NCBI GenBank assembly: GCA_947623805.1
Contig: CANQHZ010000004.1
Location: 4,118-68,117 of the forward strand
Reading direction: 5' to 3'
Source: an uncultured Lachnospiraceae bacterium
GTDB lineage: Bacteria > Bacillota > Clostridia > Lachnospirales > Lachnospiraceae
Length of the DNA stretch: 64,000 nucleotides
The translations under genes were made by a program, and so were the position numbers. The notes beneath the pieces are model-generated. The model searched no databases. It was not told the DNA's origin and was given only the letters and a program-made list of their open reading frames with translations. Below are positions 32,930 through 50,039 of the stretch, in pieces (the stretch's first letter is position 1; every line of letters begins with the position of its first letter).

Positions 32930-34378
32930 TTGAAATTGGAGGTTAAAAAATTGGTAAATCGAGTAAAAAGAAGTATATCATTAATGCTGATTTTTTTTAT
33001 CACATTTTTATCGATTGCTTGCGAAAGTGAGTCAACAAATGCATATATATCCAATTCAAACGTACAAATTATTACGGAAAATATAGATACGGAGAATATA
33101 GAAGCAGAAAGCATAGAAACAGAAGATATAATCACAGAATTTATTACAAGTGAAATATATCTTGAAGAACTTGTTTTAGCTGAGGATAAAATATCAGAGC
33201 TTCTTCTTGAGGAAGAAACAATAAATGAGGTGATGCTATGCAAGACTATTTATGTGCCTCAAAATAATATAGAAGAATTTTCAGAAAATAGTCAGACAGC
33301 TCAATTGTTTGGGGAAGGAATTGACATAGCTCCCTTACTTAAAAAAGTTGCTTTAGGTACTGGGGTAATCGTTGCACTTGTTGTATTAAAAACGGCAGGA
33401 CTTCCGCAGCCGATTGCAAGTATTGTGTGTGCAGCGGCTGATAAATCATTAAAATTCGCGGGCTCTGGCGCGGTGATGGGTTCGCTTCTTGGTGGATTAA
33501 CAGGTGAAGCAGATGCAATAGATGCTTCGGGAAGAACATCGGCAGTTATAGGTTTTGCAACGGCGGTTGCAGGATTGATTGTTACAAGCATATCTTTAAT
33601 ATCATTAGTTCCTTCAGCAGGAAGCACAACTATTACAGCTGCGGAAGGAATAAAATTGGTTATTGCTGGAGTATCATTAGTGGCGGCATCTGCGGGAACG
33701 GCACATATGGGTGCCAATTTAGTTAAGGCATTTACATCGACAGATTATGAAGATATAGATTGGGGGAATATAGACTGGGAAAAAGCAGGCGTTTCTTCGG
33801 CAGAGAGGGCAGTTAGATATGGGACAGACGGATACATGTGGGGTTCTGTTATTGGAGCAGTTTATGGAGGAGCTGAGGGATATGAATTTTACCAAAAATA
33901 TAATACACCATATACTAAATATGAGGTACGTTTGAAACATACACCGATAGATGGCAGTGGAGGAAAATGGAGCGGAAAACGAGGAGATTCTGACTATATT
34001 CTTGATAAACCTATTGAACTTCCAGATGGAACAAAAATAACAAAAGTGACATACAAAAATGCTGTTCCAGATTTTTCGCCTTATCAAAAAGCGCAAGTTA
34101 AAATATCAAAGATGACGGATTACAGATATGAAAACTTTAAACAGGCAGACGAGGTGCTTTCAGAGTATTGGAGCAGAATAAAGTATAACGGAAAAACATG
34201 GACAGCTCGTGACGTTGAAATATATCGTACTAACAATAATTTGACCTGGCATGAAATGAATAATATGGAATCAATGCAGTTAATTCCGTTGGATGTAAAT
34301 CAGAGATTTATTCATTATGGCGGAGTTGCAGAATATAAAGCTATGATAGGGCAGGAAGTGGTGAGCGAATTTGATTAA
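32930..34378 (+). CDS. Polymorphic toxin-like protein: signal/lipoprotein-like N-terminus, hydrophobic Gly/Ala helices, C-terminal WHH-type HNH nuclease
   Basis: LTWHE...MQLIP...IHYGG C-terminus; start uncertain. Confidence 0.78.
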   Translation: MKLEVKKLVNRVKRSISLMLIFFITFLSIACESESTNAYISNSNVQIITENIDTENIEAESIETEDIITEFITSEIYLEELVLAEDKISELLLEEETINEVMLCKTIYVPQNNIEEFSENSQTAQLFGEGIDIAPLLKKVALGTGVIVALVVLKTAGLPQPIASIVCAAADKSLKFAGSGAVMGSLLGGLTGEADAIDASGRTSAVIGFATAVAGLIVTSISLISLVPSAGSTTITAAEGIKLVIAGVSLVAASAGTAHMGANLVKAFTSTDYEDIDWGNIDWEKAGVSSAERAVRYGTDGYMWGSVIGAVYGGAEGYEFYQKYNTPYTKYEVRLKHTPIDGSGGKWSGKRGDSDYILDKPIELPDGTKITKVTYKNAVPDFSPYQKAQVKISKMTDYRYENFKQADEVLSEYWSRIKYNGKTWTARDVEIYRTNNNLTWHEMNNMESMQLIPLDVNQRFIHYGGVAEYKAMIGQEVVSEFD

Positions 34379-34751
34379 GACATTAAATATTAATATTTGG
34401 GAAAGGGAGTTTTCCCTTTCTGTTGAATATGACTGTTATAAATATGAATCCATTACAGCAGGGCAGATTTTGGCATTGAAGAAATTTGCTGCTCATAATG
34501 ATTGGATTGCAAATTCAAAAAGTTATGTTGAAGAATTTTGCAGAAACCAAGTAATGGAAGATGTCCAAAACGAGAAAAAGGATAATGTATTCAGCTATGT
34601 TAAGCCCGAGTGCATTTTTGTAAAACATGAAAATGACAATCCAAGAGTTGCATTGATGTGTAAATACCGCTATGATGTAGAACATGGATTAGCAGTGGTT
34701 TTTTCGGCAGATGGCACTATAAATGTAGGACCTCAAGATATAATTATGTAA
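34371..34751 (+). CDS. Putative immunity protein (DUF6985-like)
   Basis: Overlaps the toxin stop; YRYDVEHGLAVVF motif. Confidence 0.65.
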   Translation: MIKTLNINIWEREFSLSVEYDCYKYESITAGQILALKKFAAHNDWIANSKSYVEEFCRNQVMEDVQNEKKDNVFSYVKPECIFVKHENDNPRVALMCKYRYDVEHGLAVVFSADGTINVGPQDIIM

Positions 34752-34833
34752 ATTATGGTGTTTGTCGATAATAAAGAATTAAAGGCAAATGGCTCAACAA
34801 ATTTAAAAATAAAATTGTGGAAGGAAGATTATT

Positions 34834-35346
34834 ATGAACAAGATAAAAAGAAATCTGTTGCTGTTTATTATTATTGTGTTTGCTGCAGTTTTAGCGACAG
34901 GGTGTGGCGAAACAACCTATACGGCAGCGTCGGGATTTTTCTATAGCAGTGATAAGGGACACAGCTATGGTGATGGTACAAAAGAATATATAGTTGGAGA
35001 AACTGTATATATGAAAGTAAAGTTTAAGGTAACATCAGATAATAAAAAAATTTCCCAGGTTAAAGTTGTCCTTTCTATCCCAAATGCTCAAAATGTTGAT
35101 GCCAAATATATGGACGGGCAGGTTATTACACCGAATTTTGATGCAGTTAATAATGTAACAGCATATGAATTTACGGCAAATGCATCAAAGGAAGCAAATG
35201 AATCAGAATGTGTAATACAGTTTGTTCCAAATGCGGCAGGCTCAGTTACGATGACACTTGTATATGATGATAATGTAGATTCATCATATGATATTCAAAG
35301 TACATTGGAGTTTGTTGAGGCAGAGGCAAATACTGTGGAGGAATAA
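34834..35346 (+). CDS. Lipoprotein, hypothetical
   Basis: Lipobox LATGC; beta-sandwich-like body. Confidence 0.75.
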   Translation: MNKIKRNLLLFIIIVFAAVLATGCGETTYTAASGFFYSSDKGHSYGDGTKEYIVGETVYMKVKFKVTSDNKKISQVKVVLSIPNAQNVDAKYMDGQVITPNFDAVNNVTAYEFTANASKEANESECVIQFVPNAAGSVTMTLVYDDNVDSSYDIQSTLEFVEAEANTVEE

Positions 35347-35348
35347 GC

Positions 35349-48675: not shown

Positions 48676-49040
48676 ACGAAAATATATTTCAGGAAATATA
48701 TGATGAATTGGAAAAATATTTAAGTAATGCCTGGGAAAAGCTGATTGTTTATTTGGAGTACGGAAAGGCATCTTATTCATTTTCATTTTTTGTAAAAGAA
48801 GGTGAAAGGTATATCAAATGCTTTGATTTGCCGAATATTGATGAAGAAGCTCTTATGCAATCTTTTAGAAAAATTGATAAGGCAGTTTCTAAAGAACGGG
48901 ATTCGGTAAAAGAGCCTTGGTCCAATATGACAATGATTGTTGGGAATGATGGTTCTATGCACACGGATTTTGATTATACAGACTTGTCACAAGAAGGCTA
49001 TCGCTATAATAAAGAGTGGAAATTAAAATATTTAAAGTGA
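48672..49040 (+). CDS. Immunity protein (DUF600; YezG/EsaG-like)
   Basis: 4-bp overlap with the nuclease; W..L..Y.E...EPWSNMTM......G....FDY. Confidence 0.75.
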   Translation: MNENIFQEIYDELEKYLSNAWEKLIVYLEYGKASYSFSFFVKEGERYIKCFDLPNIDEEALMQSFRKIDKAVSKERDSVKEPWSNMTMIVGNDGSMHTDFDYTDLSQEGYRYNKEWKLKYLK

Positions 49041-49053
49041 CGGAGATAAACAA

Positions 49054-49746
49054 ATGCTGAGTTTTCACGAAATCCATTCAGTTGAAGATGTAAGGGAAAC
49101 ATTTTCTATAGATGCGTATAAAAATATAAAGCCAGTGGAAAATCTATCCAAGGAAGAGGCTATTAACTTTTGGAAAAGTGAATTTAAGCAGAATCGAGAA
49201 ATCCAAGAAGAAAATATTTTTGATGATTTGCTCTCAGAAACATTTAACCGTTCAGAAGATGAAATGGATTTTGAATTTGAATTTGATGATAAAATTCTCA
49301 TTTCATTGAATGAATTTAAAACTCTTGAATGGTCAAAAATCAGTGAAAAAGATAAAATTCAGATAATGAAAAATTTAGTTGATTCTGTTGGAAATGGGCT
49401 GGGATTAAAAAATATACCTAAGATAAATATTTGTGAAGATGTAGAAAATTCACAGGGAGGCTATAATCCACTGACTAATATAATCAGCATTAACAGGCTT
49501 TATTGTGATAATCCTATTGAGCTTGTAGATACACTGACACATGAATTGCGTCATGCATACCAAAATGAGAGGGCAGAAATACTTGAAACATGGCAGGATG
49601 CCATATATAAATTTAATTTTGACAATTATATAACGCCCATTCCATTACCCAAGGGTGGGTATTTATGCTTTATGGATTACTATAATCAATATGTAGAAGT
49701 TGAGGCGAGGGCATTTGCAAATTTGTTTACGGAGGCTATGAGATGA
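49054..49746 (+). CDS. Zincin-like metallopeptidase, putative effector
   Basis: THELRHAYQ (HExxH) with distal EVEARAF. Confidence 0.75.
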   Translation: MLSFHEIHSVEDVRETFSIDAYKNIKPVENLSKEEAINFWKSEFKQNREIQEENIFDDLLSETFNRSEDEMDFEFEFDDKILISLNEFKTLEWSKISEKDKIQIMKNLVDSVGNGLGLKNIPKINICEDVENSQGGYNPLTNIISINRLYCDNPIELVDTLTHELRHAYQNERAEILETWQDAIYKFNFDNYITPIPLPKGGYLCFMDYYNQYVEVEARAFANLFTEAMR

Positions 49747-50039
49747 GTGAAATAATAGAAAAATATTATAAAGATAATAATGTGATGCCTATGCTTTTGC
49801 AGCAGAAATTAAGCAAATTTGAAAAACATAAAGATATTGAGAAGGAATTTGAATATTGGATTGAAAATGGGGAGTTTGTTTCTGGCAAGCCGATATTAAT
49901 AGAAGGATATACGGCAGAGAAATTGGCAGAAGTATCTAAATGTCTTGTTGGAGATGGTGCATTTGATATGCTAATAGAGCTGCGCGAAAATCCAAAGGCT
50001 GCCTTAAAAAAGATAGCAGATGGGTTTAAGATGAAATAA
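49743..50039 (+). CDS. Small hypothetical protein, possible peptidase immunity/partner
   Basis: 4-bp overlap with the peptidase gene. Confidence 0.7.
   Translation: MSEIIEKYYKDNNVMPMLLQQKLSKFEKHKDIEKEFEYWIENGEFVSGKPILIEGYTAEKLAEVSKCLVGDGAFDMLIELRENPKAALKKIADGFKMK

What the first reader, a model, noticed from the sequence alone, without database searches (positions are those of the whole stretch)
32930..50039. Putative undescribed toxin export/conflict system: ABC + ExbB/ExbD motor + dynamin + HerA-like ATPase + nuclease/peptidase effectors
Seen in sequence: about 17 co-oriented, mostly tightly spaced or overlapping genes in visibly AT-richer DNA. The order is WHH nuclease + immunity, lipoprotein, two permeases + ABC ATPase, ExbB, three ExbD-like genes, OB-fold exported protein, dynamin-like GTPase, 1214-aa HerA-like ATPase, NS endonuclease + DUF600 immunity, zincin + small partner. 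No WXG100, EssC, LXG, VirB or phage-tail genes are recognisable. Inference: toxin-immunity pairs at both ends around three energy sources (ATP, GTP, ion gradient) suggest a distinct effector delivery or uptake apparatus in a monoderm bacterium, for example membrane fusion by dynamin and pumping by a ring ATPase. It may instead be an anti-phage system.
Basis: partly seen in the sequence, partly recalled or inferred. Interest (0 to 1): 0.86.

Follow-up and report, generated by a model that had tools for sequence, protein, structure and literature searches.

The report
Three toxin cassettes, one dynamin-HerA system
The 17 genes are real, but they are three separate gene cassettes lying side by side, and the last one (a dynamin-like GTPase, a giant HerA-type ATPase and tag-bearing swappable toxins with antidotes) is a widespread bacterial conflict system that I could not find described anywhere.

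Summary
All 17 co-oriented genes exist in low-GC DNA, and Pfam supports nearly every call. They do not form one apparatus. Comparison with about 45 related loci splits the region into three units, each conserved on its own.

- **Cassette I (32930-38337):** a membrane-anchored WHH DNase, a DUF6985 immunity protein, a lipoprotein, two FtsX-like permeases and an ABC ATPase.
- **Cassette II (38543-41693):** ExbB, a weak ExbD, two paralogous anchored proteins and an OB-fold protein.
- **Cassette III (41774-50039):** a dynamin-like GTPase, a 1214-aa HerA-like ATPase, a nuclease with YezG immunity, and a zincin with a 98-aa partner.

The three lie together only here and in one sister strain. Cassette III is the notable part:
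- The dynamin and HerA genes are adjacent in every sufficiently long locus, across about 30 Clostridia.
- The downstream toxins vary (Endonuclease_NS_2, WHH, Ntox15, unknown) but share an N-terminal tag of about 46 aa.
- The tag type co-varies perfectly with a swappable C-terminal domain of HerA (24 versus 5 loci), and the pairing recurs in a Treponema plasmid.
- Relatives on E. coli, Lactococcus and Bacillus plasmids add a second dynamin and a tail-anchored protein.
- PADLOC and the searched literature describe nothing like it.

I read it as a machine that handles polymorphic toxins. Export against rivals is slightly favoured over phage or plasmid defence.

The parts
32930..34378 (+). Cassette I toxin. 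482 aa with a lipobox-like signal (LSIAC), a Gly/Ala-rich hydrophobic segment (aa 133-258) and a C-terminal WHH/colicin-type DNase.
   Evidence: Pfam Colicin-DNase 2e-14 and WHH 7e-9. Hydropathy. Orthologues of 472-484 aa stand at the head of the same six-gene cassette in L067-L071.
34371..34751 (+). Cassette I immunity protein (DUF6985).
   Evidence: Pfam DUF6985 6e-10. It always follows the DNase in L067-L071.
34834..35346 (+). Cassette I lipoprotein (170 aa, lipobox LATGC).
   Evidence: Sequence and hydropathy. A positional homologue of 166-191 aa is present in L067-L071.
35349..37570 (+). Cassette I: two FtsX/MacB-topology permeases (387 and 336 aa).
   Evidence: Each has one N-terminal TM, a large loop and three C-terminal TMs. 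FtsX hit is weak, 5e-3. 328 homologues were found, always between the lipoprotein and the ABC ATPase.
37558..38337 (+). Cassette I ABC ATPase.
   Evidence: Pfam ABC_tran 1e-20.
38543..39100 (+). Cassette II ExbB/MotA-like channel subunit (3 TM).
   Evidence: Pfam MotA_ExbB 9e-11. Found in 8 of 200 other genera.
39101..39643 (+). Cassette II single-TM protein, weakly ExbD-like.
   Evidence: Pfam ExbD 1e-3, below cut-off. Follows ExbB in L055-L060.
39640..40706 (+). Cassette II: two membrane-anchored paralogues (194 and 161 aa) that share a C-terminal DDFA...Y domain.
   Evidence: hhalign 95%, E 3.6e-8 between them; no signal against ExbD1.
40719..41693 (+). Cassette II exported OB-fold (tRNA_anti-like) protein.
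   Evidence: Pfam 1e-8. Last gene of the block in L055-L059.
41774..44344 (+). Cassette III dynamin-like GTPase (856 aa) with intact G1 GNYSAGKST, G3 DTPG and G4 NKAD motifs.
   Evidence: Pfam Dynamin_N 3e-19. AlphaFold model pLDDT 82.5. Best Foldseek hit is BDLP 2j69, E 5e-10. Adjacent to the HerA gene in all loci.
44357..48001 (+). Cassette III HerA/FtsK-superfamily ATPase (1214 aa). Layout: basic amphipathic N-helix aa 1-25; N-domain 1-270; S/T/G/N/A-rich segment 271-520; middle domain plus ATPase 521-1060 (Walker A GSTGAGKS, Walker B VLEEAH); swappable C-domain 1068-1214 (nt 47558-47998).
   Evidence: Pfam DUF87 4e-12. PDB HerA 4d2i 3e-11. Region-wise conservation and C-domain classes. The N-domain family has 560 clusters at 50% identity.
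47998..48675 (+). Cassette III effector 1: class-1 N-terminal tag (about nt 48007-48150) plus an Endonuclease_NS_2 DNase.
   Evidence: Pfam 9e-34. Tag HMM 6e-16. TTGA start/stop overlap with the HerA gene.
48672..49040 (+). Immunity protein 1 (YezG-like/DUF600).
   Evidence: Pfam 3e-8.
49054..49746 (+). Cassette III effector 2: class-1 tag (about nt 49060-49200) plus a zincin-like domain (HELRH).
   Evidence: Tag HMM 4e-12. Weak DUF6782 and M76 hits. The pair is conserved in 14 loci.
49743..50039 (+). 98-aa partner of the zincin, presumed immunity protein.
   Evidence: Follows the zincin in 13 of 14 loci, at 43-61% identity.

Best explanation
The region is an island of three independent conflict cassettes, not one machine.

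**Cassette III (41774-50039) is the system of interest.** It is a conserved pair of NTPases, a BDLP-type dynamin GTPase and a giant HerA-type ring ATPase. They are followed by one or two small effectors, each with its own immunity gene.

Shown:
- The two NTPase genes are constant and adjacent.
- The effector's toxic domain is exchangeable.
- Every effector starts with a cassette-specific N-terminal tag.
- The tag class matches the class of the last 150 or so residues of the ATPase.

Inferred:
- The ATPase hexamer docks tag-bearing toxin/immunity complexes on its C-terminal domains.
- It uses ATP to pull the toxin free of its immunity protein.
- With the dynamin acting on the membrane, it deploys the toxin. 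Release to rival bacteria is the more likely outcome; use against invading DNA or phage inside the cell is less likely.

**Cassette I** is a separate unit. It holds a lipoprotein-like membrane DNase with its immunity protein and a LolCDE/MacB-style ABC transporter, which plausibly extracts or releases the toxin.

**Cassette II** is a separate ExbB/ExbD-type ion-driven module of unknown output.
For: **Independence of the cassettes**
- tblastn of all 17 proteins against 36 other dynamin loci finds genes 03-11 in none.
- ExbB, ExbD, the two paralogues and OB recur in that order in L055-L059 without ABC or dynamin genes.
- WHH, DUF6985, lipoprotein, two permeases and ABC recur as six genes in 5 of 5 neighbourhoods.
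- Among 200 Lachnospiraceae genus representatives, the dynamin occurs in 1, ExbB in 8 and permease 1 in 0, and never together.

**Cassette III as a unit**
- The order dynamin (about 855 aa), HerA (1189-1246 aa), toxin (174-249 aa, stop/start overlap), immunity holds in all 29 complete loci, while the flanks are unrelated.
- The first effector is Endonuclease_NS_2 in 11 loci, WHH/Colicin-DNase in 13, Ntox15 in 1 and unknown in 4. Immunity proteins are YezG-like, DUF6985 or SUKH.

**The tag**
- A 46-position HMM hits only the two effectors in the whole 3.96-Mb genome (6e-16 and 4e-12; the next hit is E 0.45).
- In the other loci it hits almost only the ORF after the HerA gene and the zincins; the one exception is a weak hit (2e-4) on a 91-aa ORF in L030.

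**Co-variation**
- The HerA C-domain is 44-66% identical in the 24 class-1 loci but 15-20% in L018, L020, L022, L025 and L029. These are exactly the five loci whose toxins lack the class-1 tag. Four of them carry a double [FY]DPDKR motif instead.
- The HerA core of L018 is 79-84% identical to class-1 L023 and L028, yet its C-domain is only 16% identical. Its dynamin is 54-91% identical, region by region, to those of class-1 loci L023 and L026. This points to a domain swap, not deep divergence.
- The class-2 C-domain matches the C-domain of the HerA on Treponema plasmid pTS2 (34-38% identity, E 1e-32 to 1e-35). That plasmid's HNH toxin carries FDPDAKI...YNPDDKV.
- Within class 1, tag identity tracks the C-domain after controlling for the core (partial r 0.34, permutation p 0.001).

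**Other support**
- Membrane link in relatives: a tail-anchored small protein, and a hydrophobic Gly-zipper stretch inside the S/T-rich zone.
- Effector and immunity families are those of interbacterial polymorphic toxins: Ntox15 is a T6SS effector (PMC10470768), and YezG and SUKH are immunity families (PMC3113570, PMC3482391).
Against: - None of the six cassette III proteins has a predicted TM helix or signal peptide. This compact variant encodes no obvious route across the membrane or wall.
- At least 25 of 29 first effectors are DNases. That suits DNA-targeting defence as well as killing of rivals.
- The cassette often lies among defence-type genes (McrBC/GmrSD in L007; kinase-STAND in 11 loci; WYL regulators).
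- Tag and C-domain co-variation could partly reflect physical linkage of adjacent DNA in recombination.
- No interaction, secretion or toxicity was tested.
- The HerA N-domain could not be modelled (pLDDT 45).
Confidence: 0.55

Rival explanations
1. Cassette III is an intracellular defence or abortive-infection system against phages or plasmids. The HerA ring (a DNA-pump family) and the dynamin sense or engage an invader at the membrane. The docked nuclease is then freed from its immunity protein to destroy DNA, which kills the invader or the infected cell.
For: - HerA proteins scaffold effectors in known defence systems (PADLOC HerA and mad8 hits 1e-15 to 1e-19; PDB hits 8yho, 8wiv and 8xau).
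- A two-dynamin system, Eleos, protects against jumbo phages (bioRxiv 10.1101/2022.05.11.491447).
- Relatives are preceded by WYL regulators.
- Flanks include McrBC, GmrSD, SLFN, ResIII, RNase_T and kinase-STAND genes.
- At least 25 of 29 first effectors are DNases.
- The cassette has no TM protein.
Against: - The immunity families (YezG/DUF600, SUKH, DUF6985) and Ntox15 are hallmarks of secreted interbacterial toxins.
- A second effector is a peptidase that carries the same tag.
- Two effector/immunity pairs per locus, and exchange of toxic domains behind a constant leader, follow the pattern of secretion substrates.
- No PADLOC system model matches.
Confidence: 0.3
2. Cassette III is mainly a selfish addiction module. 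The toxin/immunity pairs stabilise a mobile island, and the dynamin and HerA serve the element itself (for example DNA transfer or partition), not the toxins.
For: - Sporadic distribution: 1 of 200 genera, 1 of 5426 E. coli genomes.
- Location on plasmids and next to recombinases.
- The HerA ATPase resembles DNA translocases (CedD 1e-22, TrwB 8e-7).
Against: - The effector tag and the matching HerA C-domain tie the toxins to the ATPase at protein level, across phyla.
- Flanking genes are unrelated between loci, so the 4-6 genes move as a unit without a transfer apparatus.
- Only 2 of 2.9 million viral contigs carry it.
Confidence: 0.1
3. One reading: all 17 genes form one effector delivery or uptake apparatus driven by ATP, GTP and ion gradient.
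For: The genes are co-oriented, tightly spaced and share low GC. The same arrangement is present in a sister strain at 95.8% DNA identity (L009).
Against: The three blocks never co-occur in 36 dynamin loci, 6 ExbB loci, 5 ABC loci or 200 genus representatives. Each block is complete and conserved on its own.
Confidence: 0.03

Closest known systems
Type VIIb secretion with EssC variants and LXG/EsaD-YeeF nuclease toxins (Bacillota)
   Same: - An FtsK/HerA-superfamily ATPase sits next to small polymorphic toxins with downstream immunity genes.
- The toxin and immunity families are the same (Endonuclease_NS_2 with YezG/DUF600).
- The variable C-terminal end of the ATPase travels with the effector set.
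   Different: - The locus has no WXG100 or LXG domain and no EsaA, EssA or EssB membrane parts.
- It has one HerA-type ATPase domain with a large N-domain and an S/T-rich insert, not EssC's FHA domains, two TMs and three FtsK domains.
- It has an obligatory dynamin partner and a different leader.
Eleos (LeoA/LeoBC) dynamin-like anti-phage system
   Same: Dynamin-like GTPase(s) in variable or defence islands. The plasmid-borne relatives have two tandem dynamins.
   Different: - The window has one dynamin.
- LeoA and LeoBC models match only marginally (E about 1e-4, partial; LeoA structure ranks 43rd in Foldseek).
- Eleos has no HerA ATPase, toxin or immunity gene.
HerA-scaffolded defence systems (Sir2-HerA, DUF4297-HerA) and HerA-NurA
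   Same: A HerA-family ATPase is coupled to a nuclease-type effector encoded next to it.
   Different: - Here the effectors are small, tag-bearing and exchangeable, and each has an immunity protein.
- The ATPase is twice as long, with extra N- and C-domains.
- A dynamin is present.
Polymorphic toxin systems as defined by Zhang et al. 2012 (PMC3482391)
   Same: A constant N-terminal region, a variable C-terminal toxin domain, a cognate immunity gene immediately downstream, and known toxin domains (WHH, Endonuclease_NS_2, Ntox15).
   Different: The N-terminal region is a new tag of about 46 aa, not one of the listed trafficking domains. The associated NTPases are not a listed secretion route.
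LolCDE/MacB-type ABC transporters (for cassette I) and ExbB-ExbD/TolQR/MotAB/ZorAB stators (for cassette II)
   Same: - Cassette I has two FtsX-topology permeases, an ABC ATPase and lipoprotein-like clients.
- Cassette II has a 3-TM ExbB-like subunit followed by a single-TM partner with a TM Asp.
   Different: - The host is a monoderm with no outer membrane, no TonB and no peptidoglycan-binding domain.
- The Pfam FtsX and ExbD hits are below cut-off.
- The partners (a DNase toxin; an OB-fold protein) are unlike those of the named systems.

Membership tests
Type VIIb secretion system | WXG100 or LXG domain proteins in the locus or on the toxins | tested here: not met
   No such Pfam hit on any of the 17 proteins. 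WXG100 genes exist elsewhere in the genome, on contig C1.
Type VIIb secretion system | EssC-type ATPase (FHA, 2 TM, tandem FtsK domains) plus EsaA/EssA/EssB membrane proteins | tested here: not met
   A single DUF87/HerA domain. No TM helix in cassette III.
Eleos (LeoA/LeoBC) | Two dynamin-like proteins that match the LeoA and LeoBC models | tested here: not met
   One dynamin. PADLOC LeoA 8e-5 and LeoBC 1e-4, over short stretches only.
Polymorphic toxin system | Variable C-terminal toxin domains behind a conserved N-terminal region | tested here: met
   The class-1 tag is conserved in 24 loci that carry Endonuclease_NS_2, WHH, zincin or unknown domains.
Polymorphic toxin system | Cognate immunity gene directly downstream | tested here: met
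   YezG-like follows Endonuclease_NS_2; DUF6985 or SUKH follows WHH. Neutralisation was not tested.
Polymorphic toxin system | Recognised trafficking domain or secretion system | tested here: not met
   No Pfam match to the tag and no known secretion genes in the cassette.
HerA/FtsK ATPase superfamily | DUF87/HerA P-loop domain with Walker A and Walker B | tested here: met
   Pfam DUF87 47 bits against a cut-off of 23. GSTGAGKS and VLEEAH in the sequence. PDB HerA 4d2i 3e-11.
Bacterial dynamin-like proteins | Dynamin GTPase domain with G1-G4 motifs and a BDLP-type helical stalk | tested here: met
   Dynamin_N 70 bits against a cut-off of 27. Model pLDDT 82.5. Foldseek top hits are BDLP, SynDLP, OPA1 and the Campylobacter DLP pair, probability 1.0. 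Membrane binding was not tested.
TonB-ExbB-ExbD system | ExbB, ExbD and TonB together | tested here: not met
   ExbB passes (42 bits against 22.9). ExbD is below cut-off (19.5 against 25.4). No TonB-like protein in the block.
LolCDE/MacB ABC transporters | FtsX-family permease(s) with a large extracytoplasmic loop plus an ABC ATPase | tested here: inconclusive
   ABC_tran passes. FtsX scores 17.3 bits against a cut-off of 25.5. The topology fits.
Zorya | ZorA/ZorB with long tail and ZorC/D or ZorE | tested here: not met
   ZorA2 hits of only 5e-6 over the channel core. The protein is 185 aa against about 550.

The most novel reading that the evidence does not exclude
Cassette III and its two-dynamin relatives are a previously unrecognised machine for deploying protein toxins, in effect a new secretion or delivery route found in both monoderm and diderm bacteria. 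In this reading a HerA-type ring ATPase selects leader-tagged effectors through an exchangeable C-terminal receptor domain and strips off the immunity protein. A dynamin-like GTPase then remodels the membrane (pore, vesicle or fusion) to release the toxin.
Probability: 0.35. Interest if true: 0.9.

Novelty: new variant of a known kind. Interest (0 to 1): 0.72.

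Why it matters
**Cassette III**
- Gut and rumen Clostridia are major members of animal microbiomes, yet little is known about how they fight each other beyond type VII secretion.
- This cassette couples two mechano-enzymes to exchangeable, address-tagged toxins. It would be either a new toxin delivery route or a new class of immune system.
- It would also give bacterial dynamins, whose functions are mostly unknown, a concrete client.
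- The match between tag and ATPase C-domain gives an immediately testable recognition code.
- Culturable carriers exist: Acetatifactor aquisgranensis DSM 110981, Lacrimispora saccharolytica An861, Oribacterium sp. P6A1, and Lactococcus cremoris plasmid pF27B.

**The two neighbouring cassettes**
- A Lol-like ABC transporter is tied to a lipoprotein DNase.
- An ExbB/ExbD module sits in a bacterium that has no outer membrane.
- Both are small open problems in their own right.

Tried and rejected
- **HerA N-domain model.** AlphaFold on a 21-sequence alignment gave pLDDT 45, unusable. A profile search of PDB sequences gave nothing (best E 0.37).
- **Literature.** Six full-text searches combining dynamin, HerA, DUF87, FtsK-HerA, WYL, HNH, polymorphic toxin and interbacterial terms found no description of the combination. 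Zhang 2011 and 2012 mention HerA only for YueA/EssC.
- **Defence and annotation libraries.** PADLOC and NCBIfam give no system-level match.
- **Phage origin.** Only two unverified contigs among 50,697 phage records and 2 of 2.9 million IMG/VR contigs. Rejected.
- **Dynamin co-variation with tag class.** None seen.
- **Promoter and terminator scan.** Counts equal chance expectation.
- **HerA N-domain as a fusion of the small proteins of the plasmid class.** Rejected, because plasmid-class HerA proteins align from about residue 16 and have the N-domain too.
- **Kinase-STAND pair as an obligatory partner.** Rejected. It is absent from more than half of the loci, and it also flanks cassette I in L071.

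Full report
**1. Observation**

They are separated by at most 205 nt or overlap. They lie in DNA of 0.31-0.37 GC, between flanks of 0.42-0.49.

Pfam supports the calls:
- Colicin-DNase/WHH with DUF6985.
- ABC_tran.
- MotA_ExbB.
- A tRNA_anti-like OB fold.
- Dynamin_N.
- DUF87/HerA.
- Endonuclea_NS_2 with YezG-like.
- A zincin-like protein with an HELRH motif.

The weaker points are these:
- The two permeases have FtsX topology but only sub-threshold hits.
- Of the 'three ExbD-like' genes, only the first has an ExbD hit, and it is weak (1e-3). The other two are paralogues of each other in their last 70 residues (hhalign 95%, 3.6e-8) and are not detectably ExbD.
- The nuclease most likely starts at the TTG at 47998, overlapping the HerA stop codon. 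Its orthologues start in the same way.

The island runs from about 20.4 kb, after a response-regulator/HD gene, to about 52.8 kb, before the ATP synthase operon. It contains no tRNA gene.

**2. One system or several**

I seeded neighbourhood comparisons with the dynamin. The search found 1537 homologues among the 8000 candidates scored. I read four neighbourhoods in metagenome contigs and 37 loci from species-representative genomes. These are mostly Lachnospiraceae, Ruminococcus, Oscillospiraceae and other gut or rumen Clostridia. L009, from a rabbit-gut Lachnospiraceae MAG, is a sister strain at 95.8% DNA identity with the same gene order.

tblastn of all 17 window proteins gave a clear result:
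- In the 36 other loci, genes 03-11 are never present.
- The dynamin and HerA genes are adjacent wherever the contig is long enough.

Searching from the other modules gave the mirror image:
- The ExbB-like protein occurs in 8 of 200 other genera of the family. In L055-L059 it is followed by the same ExbD-like, paralogue and OB genes, with unrelated flanks and no ABC or dynamin genes.
- Permease 1 has 328 homologues. In five of five neighbourhoods it lies in the same six-gene block: a 472-484-aa Colicin-DNase, DUF6985, a small lipoprotein, two permeases and an ABC ATPase. These blocks sit on conjugative or prophage-like elements.
- Among 200 genus representatives, the dynamin is in 1, ExbB in 8 and permease 1 in 0. 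No genome combines them.

The finding is therefore three cassettes that happen to be neighbours.

**3. Anatomy of cassette III**

In 29 complete loci the order is constant:
- Dynamin, about 855 aa.
- HerA-like ATPase, 1189-1246 aa.
- A small effector of 174-249 aa, whose start overlaps or abuts the HerA stop.
- An immunity gene of 118-183 aa.
- In 14 loci, a second pair: a zincin of about 228 aa and a partner of about 98 aa.

The first effector is Endonuclease_NS_2 in 11 loci, WHH/Colicin-DNase in 13, Ntox15 in 1 and unassigned in 4. The immunity proteins are YezG-like, DUF6985 or SUKH.

The dynamin has intact G motifs. Its AlphaFold model is confident (pLDDT 82.5). The closest solved folds are Nostoc BDLP, SynDLP, OPA1 and the Campylobacter DLP pair; LeoA ranks 43rd.

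The ATPase has five parts:
- A basic amphipathic N-terminal helix.
- A very conserved N-domain (70-87% identity).
- A 250-aa segment made 65% of T, S, A, G and N.
- A middle domain plus a HerA ATPase with Walker A and B motifs.
- A C-terminal domain of about 150 aa.

By sequence, the nearest solved relatives are HerA proteins. The N-domain defines a family of 560 clusters at 50% identity. In nearly all matches it starts within the first 40 or so residues, and the full-length members are proteins of about 1000-1350 aa.

None of the six proteins has a predicted TM helix or signal peptide.

**4. The tag and its receptor**

The effectors share a leader of about 46 residues whatever their toxic domain: roughly E-[IV]-K-x-P-x-x-E-N-[FY]-K-x-I-K-P-E-x-x-M-[ST]-x-x-[ED]-A-K-x-F-W-x-x-E-F. 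The zincin carries it too.
- An HMM of this tag finds exactly two proteins in the 3.96-Mb genome, the two effectors.
- In the other loci it finds almost only the ORF after the HerA gene and the zincins, apart from one weak hit (2e-4) on a 91-aa ORF in L030.

Five loci (L018, L020, L022, L025, L029) lack this tag. Four of them carry a doubled [FY]D[PV]DKR[IVL] motif instead. Exactly these five have a HerA C-domain of another type:
- Their C-domain is 15-20% identical to the window's, against 44-66% in the other 24 loci.
- The rest of their ATPase is as conserved as elsewhere.

This is a swap, not deep divergence:
- The HerA core of L018 is 79-84% identical to class-1 loci L023 and L028, but its C-domain is only 16% identical.
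- Its dynamin is 54-91% identical, region by region, to those of class-1 loci L023 and L026.

The class-2 C-domain is homologous to that of the HerA-like protein on Treponema saccharophilum plasmid pTS2 (E about 1e-33). That plasmid's HNH toxin begins with FDPDAKI...YNPDDKV. So the pairing holds across phyla.

Within class 1, tag similarity follows C-domain similarity after allowing for the ATPase core (partial r 0.34, permutation p 0.001).

I infer, but have not shown, that the C-domain is the docking site for the tag. Linkage of adjacent DNA is the main alternative reading of the co-variation. Two observations argue for a protein-level role:
- The tag on the second, more distant effector.
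- The cross-phylum pairing, which holds without DNA similarity.

**5. The wider family**

tblastn against plasmids found HerA-like proteins that are 41-53% identical over most of their length. Their operons have this order: [WYL regulator], short dynamin, long dynamin, one or two small proteins, HerA-like ATPase, HNH nuclease, SUKH or other immunity protein. They occur on:
- E. coli pTW10590_133.
- Lactococcus cremoris pF27B.
- Bacillus sp. PGP15 p1.
- Treponema pTS2.

In these relatives:
- One small protein per operon is tail-anchored.
- In several (Lactococcus, Treponema, R. albus), the S/T-rich zone of the ATPase contains a hydrophobic glycine-zipper stretch.

The machine is therefore membrane-associated in the relatives. 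The window's Clostridial form is a compact variant: one dynamin, no tail-anchored protein, an extra amphipathic N-helix on the ATPase, and only a degenerate glycine-zipper.

The family is sporadic. It occurs in 1 of 200 Lachnospiraceae genera, 1 of 5426 E. coli genomes and 2 of 2.9 million viral contigs.

**6. What it does**

Firmly supported: this is a conflict module in which two NTPases are dedicated to small, exchangeable, tag-bearing toxins that are held in check by immunity proteins.

My preferred mechanism (confidence about 0.55 for the whole statement) has three steps:
- The HerA hexamer docks toxin/immunity complexes.
- It uses ATP to separate them.
- The dynamin acts on the membrane to deploy the toxin.

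For export against rivals:
- Ntox15, YezG and SUKH are families known from T6SS and T7SS toxins (PMC10470768, PMC3113570, PMC3482391).
- There are two effector/immunity pairs per locus.
- The leader logic is that of secretion substrates.
- The variable ATPase end resembles the EssC variants.

For intracellular defence (about 0.3):
- This variant has no membrane protein.
- DNases make up at least 25 of 29 first effectors.
- The cassette has defence-type neighbours and WYL regulators.
- There are precedents in Eleos and in HerA-scaffolded effectors.

A purely selfish addiction role is less likely (about 0.1).

**7. The neighbours**

Cassette I couples a DNase that has a lipobox-like signal and a Gly/Ala-rich hydrophobic segment to its immunity protein, a second lipoprotein, two FtsX-topology permeases and an ABC ATPase. 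The layout recalls LolCDE and MacB. This suggests, by inference only, that the transporter extracts or releases the lipidated toxin.

Cassette II is an ExbB/ExbD-like ion-driven module with two paralogous anchored proteins and an exported OB-fold protein. It sits in a monoderm without TonB, and its output is unknown.

The gene pair p407 plus kinase-STAND (20424-21647 and 23155-26298) flanks cassette III in 11 other loci, on either side. It also flanks cassette I in L071. I read it as the marker of an insertion hot spot or a frequent island companion, not as a proven partner.

**8. Novelty**

The following describe neither the dynamin + HerA + tagged-toxin combination nor the tag:
- PADLOC 2.0 and NCBIfam.
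- Pfam.
- Six full-text literature searches.
- The two Aravind-group surveys of toxin trafficking.

Earlier notes of this scan report the same class in other genomes. I had already found the plasmid relatives independently. I treat those notes as agreement, not as evidence.

I file the cassette as a new variant of the polymorphic-toxin kind, with a new associated machine. If export is shown, it would rank as a new delivery system.

Noticed in passing
window 32930-38337: This is a self-standing six-gene cassette, conserved in 5 of 5 neighbourhoods on mobile elements. It holds a lipoprotein-like membrane WHH DNase, a DUF6985 immunity protein, a lipoprotein, two FtsX-topology permeases and an ABC ATPase. 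The Lol/MacB-like layout suggests a dedicated extractor or releaser for a lipidated toxin in a monoderm.
   Followed up: partly
window 38543-41693: This is a five-gene module conserved in other Lachnospiraceae genera, with no TonB and no outer membrane. It holds ExbB, a weak ExbD, two paralogous anchored proteins (a shared DDFA...Y domain not in Pfam) and an exported OB-fold protein. Its function is unknown.
   Followed up: partly
window 20424-21647 and 23155-26298: The pair of a 407-aa protein without a Pfam hit and a kinase/NB-ARC STAND protein lies directly beside the dynamin-HerA cassette in 11 other loci, upstream or downstream. It also lies beside cassette I in L071. Here the pair is split by a minus-strand 341-aa gene (21697-22722; no Pfam family found, called Rpn by a first-stage note). 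It may mark an insertion hot spot or be a functional companion.
   Followed up: partly
window 27678-27727, 30997-31046, 32772-32821: Three copies of a promoter-like element of about 40-50 nt (TTGACTAAT...AAAGTAGTATAAAATAGGA). They stand in front of the 470-aa gene at 27780 that precedes the DUF5780 gene (no Pfam hit), the zinc-ribbon gene and the cassette I toxin gene.
   Followed up: partly
window 45167-45916 (HerA aa 271-520): This 250-aa segment is made 65% of T, S, A, G and N and is moderately conserved (43-64%). In plasmid-borne relatives the same zone holds a hydrophobic glycine-zipper stretch that looks like a membrane hairpin. Here it is degenerate (GADVGLINAGASAG).
   Followed up: partly
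window 50474-50947 and 51538-51939: Two HicB-like antitoxin genes lie just after cassette III. A possible small HicA-like ORF lies at 51309-51506.
   Followed up: no
own genome, contig C1 about 72.1-73.8 kb: A cluster of five WXG100 genes, plus one on C62. The genome probably has a type VII system elsewhere, separate from the cassettes studied here.
   Followed up: no
L017 and L019: The cassette also appears in records labelled Alistipes (a MAG) and Thermoguttaceae. The L019 copy is nearly identical in its toxin to that of a Roseburia MAG (L016). This suggests mis-binning, contamination or very recent transfer.
   Followed up: no
L055 4231-9592: In one genome the ExbB module is preceded by a 481-aa Endonuclease_NS_2 protein, a Macro-domain protein and a vWA protein. 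This is another conflict-type context.
   Followed up: no
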